This document shows, in pieces, positions 843 to 63,702 of a stretch of DNA of 64,000 nt (the stretch's first letter is position 1; every line of letters starts with the position of its first letter). A program made the position numbers and the translations under genes. The stretch is from the human T2T-CHM13v2.0 reference genome, Homo sapiens. The stretch is from positions 16,640,001 through 16,704,000 of the forward strand of contig CP068257.2 in assembly GCA_009914755.4 (NCBI GenBank), given 5' to 3'. The notes beneath the pieces were generated by a model that was not told the origin of the DNA, ran no database searches, and saw only the letters and a list, made by a program, of their open reading frames with translations.

Positions 843-1024
843 CTGTGTAATTCACTTTAAATTCCAGATGCATCATGGCAATGTCGTTGTCCTTTCTTCG
901 CCTATTGTAATGAGGGTTTATGACAATTTCATCTATTAATCGAGGGACTGTTTGAGGAGAGGTCAGATTTGATTTCATATGCAGGCCTAGGATTGCTGTC
1001 CACTTGGATGGCTCTAAGTTTCTC
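843..1024 (-). CDS. TMPRSS15: TMPRSS15 serine-protease-domain exon. Translates to (G)[60 protein letters not shown](D), approx residues 829-890. The catalytic Asp876 codon is gac at + 883-885 (reverse complement).
   Basis: Provided ORF 820..1062(-). Acceptor caattttcag, donor gtaaaaaaaa. The DIAMM aspartate motif is present. Confidence 0.92.
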
Positions 1025-1618
1025 CTGAAAATTGTAATGAAGAAATATGAGACACTCTCCATCCAAAGCAGTTCCTTTCTAGAAGATCTTCATCATGACA
1101 TTTCAGAATATGTTTCTATCCTGAAATGTTCTTTAATTTCTCTGAAGAATCATCCTTTAAAAATATTCTCAAATCTTTATTTTTCTGATCACAACATAAA
1201 GAAAACCCTAATTAGTGCTAATCTCTCTGTTTCACTCCTCTTAAGTTATATGCTGAGCTCTAGTTCTAGATTGTGGTTCTCAACTGTGGTTGTACATTGC
1301 AATCTCGTGAGGTGCTTTTAAATAATGCTGACACCTACTTCCCCTCCTCCCCCGATTCTAATGTACTGGGTCTGGAATAGTCCACCAGACAATTTAAAAA
1401 ATACTTCTAAAATTAAATCTCCAAATTTGTGCTACTATATATAATATATGGCTAGGTTGGAGAACCTCTGCCTTAGGTCACATTTCACTGTGGAAATTGT
1501 GTCCCTGTTAAGGGCTTTTTCAGACAACTGTAGCTAGCAACTGTAGTATAATGGAAGGAAGTTCAGATGCATTTCCCATTTAGAGAGTCATTGAATTCAC
1601 ATATAGTTAAAGTAAACA

Positions 1619-1928
1619 AGCCAGGCGCGGTGGCTCACGCCTGTAATCCCAGCACTTTGGGAGGCCGAGGCGGGCGGATCACAAGGTCAGGGGATCGAGA
1701 CCATCTTGGTTAACACGGTGAAACCCCGTCTCTACTAAAAATACAAAAAATCAGCCGGGCGTGGTGGTGGGCGCCTGTAGTCCCAGCTACTTCGGGGGGC
1801 AGAGGCAGGAGAATGGCGTGAACCCGGGGGGCGGAGCTTGCAGTGAGCCGAGATTGCGCCACTGCACTCCAGCCTGGGAGACAAAGCAAGACTCCGCCTC
1901 AAACAAAAAAAAAAAAAAAAAAAAAAAA
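1619..1928 (+). mobile_element. Full-length Alu (AluS/Y-like) with poly-A tail. TSD agtaaacaag / agtaaacag.
   Basis: Alu consensus motifs. A-tail at 1905-1928. The direct repeats flank the element. Confidence 0.9.
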
Positions 1929-4556
1929 GTAAACAGTATGCCTTATTATAATTTTTATAATCTAACATATAAACTTGAATAATCTCCATATACAATGTTG
2001 GCCATCTATAATAATTGGTAAAGGATAACACTTGTGTTGTAGAACAGATTAAATTGGGTAGTATATTATAATTTGAAAGTGTGCAAGGACTTTTAAATGT
2101 GCTATTGGCCTGCGATTTCTTCACACAAAGGAATTATCAGCTGGAATTAAGCCAGTTAAGCCATATTCACAATGAAGGTAAAATTCAATGGTTGCAATCC
2201 TAGGCAGAGCTATTGATTCAATTCTTAACAGTCGCAAATGCCTCGTTTAATGTGGTATTTAAATATTAAAGTCCAAGTCACTTACAGATGTATAAAGGGC
2301 ATGAAGTTACTTACATCTATCTATCACTTTGTTTTATTTACCAAATTACTATGTTTGGTCAGGTAGCAGTCATCAGTAAAGCCAGTGAGCGTCCAAGCAT
2401 TCAGTAAAGCATCCACTGACAACCACATTGCATTAGAACTTGAAGAAATACACCTAAGTGCTCTGTAGCAACAAAATACTACTTGGTGCCAAGTGCAATA
2501 CCGAGAACTTTTGTATCTCTTCATTTAATCCTCATCATAATTTTACAATGGGAACAAACTAGGCGCTGATTATCTAAATGGTAGGAGGTGACTTTAATTG
2601 GAGCTGTCTGACTTTAGAGCCTGCACTTAACACCAGTGACTGGGGTGCCTCATACAGCTCTGAGTGGGGTGCCATGGGAGGGATTGAGAACTAGAAGGAA
2701 GGACTGGAGATGTGGGGGGCAAGAGGGAGAGATAAGCTCTGCTGTTGCTTTCCCTGCTCCCACATAGGGGAAGTTATCTCTGCTCCTAGTGGTTGGTGGC
2801 AGCTCCTTAAGTGGCTTAGAGACTGGGCCAGGAGGTCATTATGGTGCTGTACAGGCTTGACAAGAGGTCTTCGTGCTTTCTCTTCTCCAGGTCAGAGGAA
2901 TCTGTACTTCAGCCATGCTTGGCATCTTGATAATTTCAGACAGCACCCCACTTCCACTGTACCCTGGGATTCCCGTGTCTACTTTAGCCTATGTAGGGAG
3001 AGTGAACAGAGCCAAATCTCTTCCCTGGTGTTCTGTTTCTGAACTTCTTTCTCTATCACATGTTAAGTATATTTCCTAAAGCTCAACTGGTCAGTTTTCA
3101 CTTGAGTAGCCTGCCTGTTAAGACTGACAGGTAACAAGTAGTTACTTTATTTTAAAAATTGTATGATTTTTTTTTTACTCAACATTTACCTCACACATTC
3201 ACTCAATATTTACAAAAAATTAATCTTACAATTACTATACCGTATGTTTTGTGTTTGGCATTTTATTAAATTTATTTATACATCATATTCTCTGTTATAT
3301 TCATATAACCAATGTATTGTAATAGTATTTATAATTTATAGTGTATGTATATAAATTATCTATATAAATATTACCTATATTAATGAACTATTAATATTTG
3401 CTCACAGTGTATGAGATCATTATATATAAGTTGGAGTTAACAGAGGACATGTCATTATTAAAAATTATAGGATTGTCTCCTCAGGTGTTTTATACATATT
3501 TTATCTTCAGAATTTTTCATATAGAAGTTCAGAGAGGTGCATGCAGTTTATTTGATATAGATTTAAATAAATGTTAAATTAAGGTATTTCAGAGAAAGAG
3601 CATCTAAACTCCCAAATTCTTCTTTGTAAATACTATACTTTATCTGAGAACTAATCAACATAATCACTGATATGAGAGAGCTTGTAGGTAACATAGTTTA
3701 GTAATCATCACTTCCTTTCATTATTTTAAGGACTTGAGTAGAAAACCAATACATGAACCAGGAACGTGCAGATTAAATATACGTGCTTCAAGCTACTCAT
3801 CTAATTTAATACAATTTACAACAATATTAATCTGACACATTCTTGATAATTTCCAAAATTGTTTATTGTGCCACATAGAAAATAGCCTCTCTTTCATGTT
3901 TTTATTACTTCAGTATCTATGAGCAGCACCATGGATAGGAAAAATTCCGCCGCCATGTATCATTTACATCTTTCCTTCAAAGAGAAAGGCTGCTCCACAA
4001 ACCTTTCTGTCATGCACTTAACTTCCCCACCACAAAACCAACACTAGCACAAGCACCACCAGTACTACTCCATCTGGCAGTAATTTTAGAGCTTTTCCTC
4101 GGTGGAAAATGACTGGAGAATACAGAGCTTACAGCCAATAGTTCTTAAGTTCTAGAGCCACTTGAGGAAGTTTCTAAAACTTTAGATTTCTAGTTTCCAT
4201 TTCCAGAAATTCTAATTTGGAAAGTTGGAGTGGCACTCAACAATCTGTACTTTGTAATCACTGTTGGGATACTGAGCAATGCAGAAAACTTCCTAGCTTT
4301 TTTATATACCCAAATCTGAGGGGCAGGTGAAGACAGCCTTCAGAAAATTCATTTTAGATGAAGAGATGGGACTTTTTATGTTTTTAAAATCTGGTCTCAA
4401 AGCATCTCTTTTCTAGTAAAGGAAGGAAGAGCTATAGCGCTGAAGATAGATGGGCATAGGAGAAGGTGAGAACCACCTGGAATAGGAAATCCCCAATCCG
4501 GTGGAGGATAAAGATCGCAAAGATAGGGCATCTTCAGATAGAAGTTGGCTGAATTT

Positions 4557-63147: not shown

Positions 63148-63298
63148 CTTAAATTTAACTGTTTCATTTAGGGTTACTTGTCCATAATTCCAATTGTCTC
63201 CATAATTTCCTTCCTTTTGGAAAACTGTCTTCTCCATATTTTGGTCATTGCTGATATTAATGCTTAATTTATGGACATTTTCACCATACATATGATAC
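63148..63298 (-). CDS. TMPRSS15: TMPRSS15 coding exon, MAM domain. Translates to YHMYGENVHKLSINISNDQNMEKTVFQKEGNYGDNWNYGQVTLNETVKFK, approx residues 427-476.
   Basis: Provided ORF 63073..63291(-) contains this peptide. Acceptor ccaaactag, donor gtttgc. The exon ends in phase 0 and the next exon starts in phase 0. Confidence 0.9.
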
Positions 63299-63596
63299 CT
63301 AGTTTGGAAAGAAGCAAAAATGTTTGGATTCCTACAACATTAGAATAAGTCCTTTTCAGAGCTTTTCTACATTTTTTACTTTCTTTGAAATAATCTTTTT
63401 TTCCTTCTGGGTTTTGGAGTTGCTGGGGATGGGGAGAGGTGTCTATCAATGTTTTATTGCTTATCAGTTGGGAAAAGTAATAGTATATGCATTAAAACTT
63501 TAGCCAACATCTTAGTGAAATATGAGCCTGGTGGCCTGAGCAAGGCAATGTTACCCATTAAAAAAGACAGCGTTTAAACAGGTGTCTACAACATAC

Positions 63597-63702
63597 CAGA
63601 AACTAAGGCAAGCTGGCTCCAAAGTGGGGTCCAAAGGGAGGCTTAAAAGCCCCACTCGTTCTTGTCTCCCTCCTGGTCCAGTTGGGGTAGAAATGTAAAA
63701 TC
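63597..63702 (-). CDS. TMPRSS15: TMPRSS15 coding exon, MAM domain part. Translates to (G)FYISTPTGPGGRQERVGLLSLPLDPTLEPACLSF(W), approx residues 391-426.
   Basis: Minus-strand translation matches the enteropeptidase MAM domain as I recall it. Acceptor ttttacag at 63703-63710 and donor gtatgttg at 63596-63589 (both read on the minus strand) bracket it. Phase is consistent with the next exon (tg + g = W). Confidence 0.85.

What the first reader, a model, noticed from the sequence alone, without database searches (positions are those of the whole stretch)
843..63702. The window is the 3' half of human TMPRSS15 (enteropeptidase), with 12 minus-strand exons resolved to the nucleotide
Twelve short minus-strand segments translate to one continuous polypeptide when joined. 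Every junction is canonical GT-AG and the codon phases match across all 11 introns.

The joined protein reads MAM end, CUB2, LDLRA2, SRCR, the K|IVGG zymogen activation site, and the trypsin-like domain through the AAHC (His825) and DIAMM (Asp876) motifs. This matches human enteropeptidase as I recall it (UniProt P98073: MAM to 504, CUB2 524-634, LDLRA2 641-679, SRCR 678-771, peptidase S1 from 785).

The window therefore spans about 63 kb of introns with twelve exons of 50-182 nt. The Ser971 exon and the 3' UTR lie before position 1.
Basis: partly seen in the sequence, partly recalled or inferred. Interest (0 to 1): 0.55.

Follow-up and report, generated by a model that had tools for sequence, protein, structure and literature searches.

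The report
Human enteropeptidase gene, exons 11–22

Summary
Twelve minus-strand segments between 63702 and 843 are each bounded by AG...GT. Joined, they give a single open 498-codon frame.

The product is 392/393 identical to the human enteropeptidase heavy chain (PDB 8zi4_A, E = 4e-288). It also matches residues 1-105 of the human light chain, bit score 233 against 185 for bovine. Pfam reads MAM (C-terminal part), CUB, LDL-receptor class A, SRCR and the N-terminal half of trypsin.

Published human variant nomenclature fixes exon ends at c.1428, c.1921/1922 and c.2486. It also gives exon 16 as 141 bp and places variants in exons 14, 16, 21 and 22. All of this fits my coordinates.

Two published human minigene primers match exactly. 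They lie 121 nt upstream and 173 nt downstream of my exon 16, as that paper states.

The segments are therefore TMPRSS15 exons 11-22 (c.1172-2668, residues 391-890). Exons 23-25, including the Ser971 exon, are not in the window.

The only difference from the deposited human protein is Ser (TCT) instead of Pro at residue 732. Nothing here is new, so interest is low. A great-ape orthologue cannot be formally excluded with these tools.

The parts
63597..63702 (-). TMPRSS15 exon 11 (106 nt; c.1172-1277; aa 391-426; MAM domain)
   Evidence: The acceptor is tttttacag| and the donor is |gtatgt. The translation is identical to PDB 8zi4_A from chain residue 211. No earlier exon was found in 63703-64000.
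63148..63298 (-). TMPRSS15 exon 12 (151 nt; c.1278-1428; aa 426-476; MAM)
   Evidence: The junction search gave 0 mismatches. The donor is gtttgc. The published variant c.1428+2T>G fixes the exon end at c.1428 with T at +2.
61055..61190 (-). TMPRSS15 exon 13 (136 nt; c.1429-1564; aa 477-522; MAM end and linker)
   Evidence: The acceptor is ttgcag| and the donor is |gtaagt. The junctions are unique at 0 mismatches and the sequence runs continuously in the PDB alignment.
51722..51811 (-). TMPRSS15 exon 14 (90 nt; c.1565-1654; aa 522-552; CUB2 start)
   Evidence: The exon is bounded by ttttcag| and |gtgagt. The published variant c.1584_1585ins is assigned to exon 14, which fits this range.
48806..48931 (-). 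TMPRSS15 exon 15 (126 nt; c.1655-1780; aa 552-594; CUB2)
   Evidence: The exon is bounded by tttttag| and |gtaagt. Junctions at 0 mismatches. It lies within the Pfam CUB match at joined residues 133-240.
46071..46211 (-). TMPRSS15 exon 16 (141 nt; c.1781-1921; aa 594-641; CUB2 end)
   Evidence: PMC7517701 gives exon 16 as 141 bp, with c.1921G as its last base, and reports that skipping deletes Ala594-Pro640. The paper's primers match exactly at 46313-46332(-) and 45898-45917(+). That leaves 121 nt of intron 15 and 173 nt of intron 16, as the paper states.
34930..35040 (-). TMPRSS15 exon 17 (111 nt; c.1922-2032; aa 641-678; LDL-receptor class A repeat 2)
   Evidence: The exon is bounded by cccatag| and |gtatgt. 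The published variant c.1922-1G>A fixes the exon start. Pfam Ldl_recept_a matches at E = 1.4e-10.
32729..32861 (-). TMPRSS15 exon 18 (133 nt; c.2033-2165; aa 678-722; SRCR)
   Evidence: The exon is bounded by ctttag| and |gtaagt. Junctions, and the Pfam SRCR and SRCR_2 matches cover it.
17525..17620 (-). TMPRSS15 exon 19 (96 nt; c.2166-2261; aa 722-754; SRCR); contains codon 732 = TCT (Ser) at 17590-17592
   Evidence: The exon is bounded by tctctag| and |gtgggt. It holds the only mismatch to the human PDB chains, Ser here versus Pro.
14394..14443 (-). TMPRSS15 exon 20 (50 nt; c.2262-2311; aa 754-771; SRCR end)
   Evidence: The exon is bounded by attacag| and |gtaagt, and a 158-nt intron follows it. 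Junctions at 0 mismatches.
14061..14235 (-). TMPRSS15 exon 21 (175 nt; c.2312-2486; aa 771-829; activation site ITPK|IVGG, His825)
   Evidence: One search gives 58/58 identity to 7wqx_A. The published variant c.2486+1G>A fixes the exon end, and c.2396T>A is assigned to exon 21. The donor is gtgagt.
843..1024 (-). TMPRSS15 exon 22 (182 nt; c.2487-2668; aa 829-890; Asp876 in DIAMM)
   Evidence: The exon is bounded by ttttcag| and |gtaaaa. The published variant c.2611C>T is assigned to exon 22, and c.2707_2708del to exon 23. It matches light chain 7wqw_B up to residue 105.

Best explanation
The window is genomic DNA of the human TMPRSS15 (enteropeptidase, enterokinase) gene, read antisense. It holds exons 11-22 of 25 (c.1172-2668, residues 391-890) and about 61 kb of introns filled with Alu and L1 repeats.

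The pre-mRNA is transcribed from the minus strand and spliced at twelve canonical GT-AG exon borders. The encoded part of the protein is the C-terminal two thirds of the MAM domain, the second CUB domain, the second LDL-receptor class A repeat, the SRCR domain, the zymogen activation site ITPK|IVGG, and the first 105 residues of the trypsin-like light chain. That last stretch carries His825 and Asp876 of the catalytic triad.

[quoted passage not shown] It cleaves trypsinogen after DDDDK and so starts the pancreatic zymogen cascade.

What is shown: exon coordinates, frame continuity, domain content, and near identity to the human protein. What is inferred: actual transcription and splicing of this copy, the chromosomal position, and that the species is human and not another hominid.
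For: - Minus-strand hallmark peptides are present.
- There are 12 colinear tblastn segments.
- Each junction has a unique GT-AG solution with 0 mismatches, apart from residue 732.
- The join is a single open 498-codon frame.
- The product is 392/393 identical to human heavy chain 8zi4_A (E = 4e-288). Residues 128-498 match 7wqx_A and residues 394-498 match human light chain 7wqw_B at 233 bits. Bovine 1ekb_B scores 185 bits and medaka 3w94_A 126 bits.
- Pfam finds MAM, CUB, Ldl_recept_a, SRCR and Trypsin, all above their curated cut-offs and in the expected order.
- Published human c. numbering agrees: exon 16 = 141 bp, c.1921 as its last base, c.1428+2T, c.1922-1G, c.2486+1G, and variants placed in exons 14, 16, 21, 22 and 23 (against my table).
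- Human minigene primers match 20/20 and 20/20 with the published 121/141/173 spacing.
- The composition fits a primate genome: GC 36%, CpG observed/expected 0.24, about 15 dimeric 7SL-like (Alu) matches below the Rfam threshold, and L1 ORF2 fragments.
Against: - There is one amino-acid difference from the deposited human protein: Ser732 (TCT) against Pro. From memory this is a listed human polymorphism, but my literature searches did not confirm it.
- No tool here searches the human genome, so the chr21q21.1 location and 100% nucleotide identity to the reference are untested.
- Only 5 of the 24 exon borders are confirmed by an outside source. The other 19 rest on protein continuity plus GT-AG.
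Confidence: 0.92

Rival explanations
1. The window is the orthologous TMPRSS15 region of a non-human great ape (chimpanzee, bonobo or gorilla), not of a human.
For: The tests used would largely also pass in a species about 1% diverged: protein identity over 498 residues, 40 nt of primer sequence, and exon sizes. The one residue that differs from the human constructs, Ser732, could be a fixed difference and not a polymorphism.
Against: 497 of 498 residues are identical to the human sequence. Both human primers match perfectly and the 121/141/173 spacing is exact. Typical human-ape protein divergence would predict a few differences over 498 residues, and only one is seen. This rival would not change what the feature is.
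Confidence: 0.07
2. The window is a duplicated or pseudogenised copy of TMPRSS15, or a paralogous type II transmembrane serine protease gene.
For: None specific. It is raised only because genomic location could not be checked.
Against: All 12 exons are open and all 24 splice dinucleotides are intact. Introns are present, so it is not a processed pseudogene. The closest paralogues in the PDB are far more distant: TMPRSS2 at 127 bits and matriptase at 83 bits, against 959 bits for enteropeptidase. The published human TMPRSS15 amplicon maps exactly.
Confidence: 0.01

Closest known systems
Human TMPRSS15 (enteropeptidase/enterokinase; formerly PRSS7), exons 11-22 of transcript NM_002772 as numbered in the clinical literature
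   Same: The protein is 497/498 identical to the human sequences deposited in the PDB. The domain order and the activation site are the same. Exon 16 length, five exon borders and four exon numbers agree. A published genomic amplicon maps exactly.
   Different: Residue 732 is Ser (TCT, c.2194 is T) where the deposited proteins have Pro. The window lacks exons 1-10 and 23-25.
Other type II transmembrane serine proteases (TMPRSS2, matriptase/ST14, hepsin, TMPRSS6)
   Same: They share the LDLa / SRCR / trypsin-like module arrangement and an R/K|IVGG activation site. They appear as weaker PDB hits.
   Different: The scores are much lower, 83-127 bits against 959. They did not match the MAM part (query 1-112) or most of the CUB part (133-240): the TMPRSS2 chains align only from about query residue 240-252 and matriptase from about 381.
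Bovine enteropeptidase light chain (PDB 1EKB)
   Same: It is the same protein family and aligns over light-chain residues 1-105.
   Different: It scores 185 bits against 233 for the human chain over the same 105 residues, so the window is the human-type sequence.

Membership tests
TMPRSS15 / enteropeptidase gene | Mosaic heavy chain with MAM, then CUB, then LDL-receptor class A, then SRCR, in this order, immediately before the protease domain | tested here: met
   Pfam on the joined product gives MAM 1-112, CUB 133-240, Ldl_recept_a 251-286, SRCR 291-384 and Trypsin 394-497. All are above their curated cut-offs.
TMPRSS15 / enteropeptidase gene | Zymogen activation cleavage site ...ITPK|IVGG at residue 784/785 | tested here: met
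   The sequence DITPKIVGG is encoded at about 14183-14209 on the minus strand. The heavy-chain PDB chains end at ...DITPK and the light-chain chains begin at IVGG.
TMPRSS15 / enteropeptidase gene | Near identity to the experimentally characterised human protein | tested here: met
   The product is 392/393 identical to 8zi4_A at E = 4e-288. It matches 7wqx_A over 371 residues at 883 bits and 7wqw_B over 105 residues at 233 bits.
TMPRSS15 / enteropeptidase gene | Exon borders as in the annotated human transcript | tested here: met
   Five borders (c.1428, c.1781, c.1921, c.1922, c.2486), one exon length (141 bp) and exon numbers 14, 16, 21, 22 and 23 from PMC7517701 and PMC11814156 agree. A primer-defined amplicon also agrees. 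The remaining 19 borders were not compared with an outside annotation.
TMPRSS15 / enteropeptidase gene | Complete catalytic triad His825 / Asp876 / Ser971 | tested here: inconclusive
   His825 (AAHC) and Asp876 (DIAMM) are present. The Ser971 exon is not in the window: there is no GDSGGP in any frame and no enteropeptidase match in 1-842.
TMPRSS15 / enteropeptidase gene | N-terminal signal anchor, SEA domain, first LDLa, first CUB and start of MAM | not testable with these tools
   These are encoded by exons 1-10, which lie beyond position 64000. Nothing upstream was found in 63703-64000.
TMPRSS15 / enteropeptidase gene | Location at human chromosome 21q21.1 | not testable with these tools
   No human genome collection is searchable here. 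The location is stated in PMC7517701 and PMC11814156.

The most novel reading that the evidence does not exclude
The most unusual reading still open concerns a 178-bp unit repeated 3.3 times in tandem at 35124-35706. It is derived from an L1 3' end and lies only 83 nt upstream of the exon 17 acceptor. It could be a length-polymorphic repeat that influences exon 17 splicing. Alternatively, the Ser732 allele could mark a functionally distinct haplotype. I have no evidence for either. Both are ordinary intron and polymorphism features until shown otherwise.
Probability: 0.03. Interest if true: 0.2.

Novelty: already known. Interest (0 to 1): 0.04.

Why it matters
It matters only as a quality check. 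A reader without tools correctly recognised a human gene and placed the outer exon limits to the nucleotide. The gene, its 25-exon structure, its protein structure and its disease link (congenital enterokinase deficiency) are all established. The finding adds no new biology.

Tried and rejected
- **Regex search for whole domains.** Patterns for LDLa, CUB and SRCR on stop-to-stop minus-strand fragments found only Alu-derived peptides, because exons split the domains.
- **The search for homologous proteins with the activation-site exon.** It returned only two 53-aa fragments at 83% and 77% identity and no full-length enteropeptidase. I therefore used a recalled protein sequence purely as a tblastn lead. 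All conclusions were verified against PDB sequences and published data.
- **Literature check of Pro732Ser.** Two searches found nothing on TMPRSS15.
- **Search for more published splice-site variants.** A search at my other exon borders returned no TMPRSS15 paper.
- **Holzinger et al. 2002.** This paper describes the gene's mutations and should carry its exon-intron table and primers. It is not held, by DOI or by PMC id.
- **Rfam at gathering thresholds.** It found no RNA gene in the window. The matches below threshold are Alu-derived.
- **Pfam on the L1-like ORFs.** It found nothing. The PDB search identified them as L1 ORF2 fragments.
- **Rejected readings.** A chance ORF is excluded by the E-value. 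A processed pseudogene is excluded because introns are present. A paralogous TTSP gene is excluded because its scores are far lower.
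Full report
**1. Nature of the DNA**

The window has 35.9% G+C and a CpG observed/expected ratio of 0.24. Composition is flat along its length, apart from an A-rich stretch at 28-32 kb.

An Rfam scan at curated thresholds finds no RNA gene. At relaxed thresholds it finds about 15 paired, sub-threshold matches to metazoan SRP RNA. It also finds sub-threshold matches to mir-1268 and mir-3135 at the same places. 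This is the signature of dimeric Alu elements, an inference from the known 7SL origin of Alu.

Two ORF fragments at 28435-28737(-) and 28944-29288(+) match human LINE-1 ORF2p at E = 4e-66. The window is therefore primate intron-rich genomic DNA.

**2. Checking the observation**

The peptide around the activation site is 58/58 identical to PDB 7wqx_A, 'Enteropeptidase'.

The large protein database returned only two 53-residue fragments. I therefore wrote down human enteropeptidase from memory and used it only as a tblastn lead. It gave twelve colinear minus-strand segments running from 63706 down to 844, and no other significant hit.

I then enumerated every GT/GC donor and AG acceptor within 30 nt of each segment end. 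I kept the pairs that preserve the frame. Each of the 11 junctions has one solution with 0 mismatches to the lead, except that the junction 8-9 stretch includes residue 732. The next-best solutions have 2-16 mismatches.

**3. The exon set**

Coordinates are window positions on the minus strand. They come, and the c. and residue numbering.

| Exon | Window coordinates | Length (nt) |
|---|---|---|
| 11 | 63702-63597 | 106 |
| 12 | 63298-63148 | 151 |
| 13 | 61190-61055 | 136 |
| 14 | 51811-51722 | 90 |
| 15 | 48931-48806 | 126 |
| 16 | 46211-46071 | 141 |
| 17 | 35040-34930 | 111 |
| 18 | 32861-32729 | 133 |
| 19 | 17620-17525 | 96 |
| 20 | 14443-14394 | 50 |
| 21 | 14235-14061 | 175 |
| 22 | 1024-843 | 182 |

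All twelve acceptors are AG behind a pyrimidine-rich tract, and all twelve donors are GT. Seven donors read GTAAG, GTGAG or GTAAA.

The introns measure 298, 1957, 9243, 2790, 2594, 11030, 2068, 15108, 3081, 158 and 13036 nt. The 1,497 joined bases have one frame with no stop (498 codons). The other two frames have 29 and 36 stops.

**4. What the product is**

Against all PDB sequences, joined residues 1-393 align end to end with the human enteropeptidase non-catalytic heavy chain (8zi4_A and 8h3s_A). The score is 959 bits at E = 4e-288, with a single mismatch.

Residues 128-498 match 7wqx_A at 883 bits. Residues 394-498 match residues 1-105 of the human catalytic light chain 7wqw_B at 233 bits. 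Over the same stretch bovine scores 185 bits and medaka 126 bits. The best paralogue, TMPRSS2, reaches 127 bits.

Pfam gives the following, all above curated cut-offs:
- MAM, profile positions 44-158, so the domain's start is missing
- CUB
- Ldl_recept_a
- SRCR and SRCR_2
- Trypsin, profile positions 1-100 of 220

The heavy-chain constructs end at ...DITPK and the light chain starts at IVGG = Ile785. On that numbering the joined product covers residues 392-889 in full. It also carries partial codons for residues 391 and 890.

**5. Independent check of exon borders**

Two clinical papers on human TMPRSS15 provide c. numbering that fixes borders.

PMC7517701 states that exon 16 is 141 bp and that c.1921G is at its donor site. 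It also states that skipping the exon removes Ala594-Pro640, that c.2396 lies in exon 21, that c.2707_2708del lies in exon 23, and that c.1428+2T>G is a splice variant.

PMC11814156 lists c.2486+1G>A, c.1922-1G>A and c.1428+2T>G. It places c.1584_1585ins in exon 14 and c.2611C>T in exon 22.

My table gives exon 12 ending at c.1428 with donor gtttgc, so T is at +2. It gives exon 16 as c.1781-1921 (141 nt, residues 594-641), exon 17 starting at c.1922 and exon 21 ending at c.2486. Exons 14, 21 and 22 contain the cited positions. All agree.

The minigene primers of PMC7517701 each occur once, without mismatch, at 46313-46332(-) and 45898-45917(+). No such match occurred in 100 shuffles of the window. 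They leave exactly 121 nt of intron 15 and 173 nt of intron 16 around my exon 16, as that paper states.

**6. What is not in the window**

A three-frame translation of the minus strand of 1-842 and of 63703-64000 has no enteropeptidase match even at E up to 1. The only hit is an Alu-derived peptide shared with a TUBGCP2 isoform. The tblastn lead found nothing for residues 890-1019 or below 390. No GDSGGP motif exists in any frame.

Exons 23-25, including Ser971 and the 3' UTR, therefore lie beyond position 1, and exons 1-10 lie beyond position 64000. The window holds 12 of the 25 exons and about 49% of the 3,057-nt coding sequence. This is the middle and the 3'-proximal part, not strictly 'the 3' half'.

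**7. Mechanism**

What is shown: a minus-strand multi-exon coding structure with canonical splice signals. It encodes the MAM-CUB-LDLa-SRCR region of the heavy chain, the activation site, and the N-terminal half of the protease domain of enteropeptidase.

[quoted passage not shown] It activates trypsinogen, and loss-of-function variants cause enterokinase deficiency. The gene spans about 134.5 kb at 21q21.1, has 25 exons and encodes 1019 residues.

What is inferred: this particular copy is the expressed human locus.

**8. The one discrepancy**

Codon 732 is TCT (Ser) at 17592-17590, whereas all deposited human chains have Pro. This is a single C>T change at c.2194.

I recall a Pro732Ser polymorphism being listed for this protein. 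Two literature searches did not confirm it, so this stays unverified. It is the only observation that gives the great-ape-orthologue rival any weight.

**9. Verdict**

The feature is an already known and fully annotated human gene, with nothing anomalous in its exon structure. Interest is low.

Noticed in passing
window 35124-35706: A 178-bp unit is repeated 3.3 times in tandem at 96% identity. Each unit contains what reads as the last codons of L1 ORF2 (ELMGAAHQHGTCIH), the L1 3' UTR with an A/T-rich tail, and about 50 nt of other sequence. The array ends 83 nt upstream of the exon 17 acceptor, on the intron 16 side.
   Followed up: partly
window 17590-17592 (minus-strand codon TCT): Residue 732 is Ser here, whereas every human enteropeptidase chain in the PDB has Pro. 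This is the only difference in 498 residues. It is probably a human polymorphism or the reference allele. The literature held here did not confirm that.
   Followed up: partly
window 37363-37558: A long pentanucleotide array, (TCCCA) x 39, at 92% matches lies in intron 16. It creates the artificial 'PSHPI' repeat ORFs at 37299-37653.
   Followed up: no
window 28153-28191; 58336-58393; 19966-20141: There are three microsatellites: a perfect (AC)19.5, an (AG)29 at 83% matches, and a degenerate (TTTC)n of about 170 nt abutting an Alu. These are candidate length-polymorphic markers inside TMPRSS15 introns.
   Followed up: no
window 103-384, 1620-1902, 4656-4806, 8360-8637, 9035-9317, 15663-15945, 20137-20416, 24982-25263, 34078-34360, 39082-39365, 41008-41157, 47544-47693, 50428-50710, 56717-56833, 60720-61011: About 15 Alu elements lie on both strands. 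They appear as paired sub-threshold Metazoa_SRP matches of 35-62 bits against a gathering score of 70. Sub-threshold hits to mir-1268 and mir-3135 overlap them, and all are below threshold. They are not RNA genes.
   Followed up: partly
window 28435-28737 (-) and 28944-29288 (+); also 7888-8163 (+), 42067-42360 (+): Two L1 ORF2 fragments in opposite orientations lie about 200 nt apart. They match human LINE-1 ORF2p at E = 4e-66, inside the A-rich 28-32 kb stretch (AT skew 0.19). Two further ORFs look like L1 ORF2 C-terminal pieces by eye. Pfam recognised none of them.
   Followed up: partly
window about 187-280 (minus-strand translation): An Alu-derived peptide in the flank downstream of exon 22 weakly matches 'isoform 3 of gamma-tubulin complex component 2' in the PDB (E = 8e-4). 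My inference is that this reflects an exonised Alu in that isoform. It says nothing about this locus.
   Followed up: no
window 14057-14383 (-): Exon 21 sits inside a 108-codon bacterial-style ORF that starts at an intronic ATG. A prokaryotic gene caller would report this as a 'gene'. That probably explains the two 53-aa trypsin-like fragments from other species returned by the protein database.
   Followed up: no
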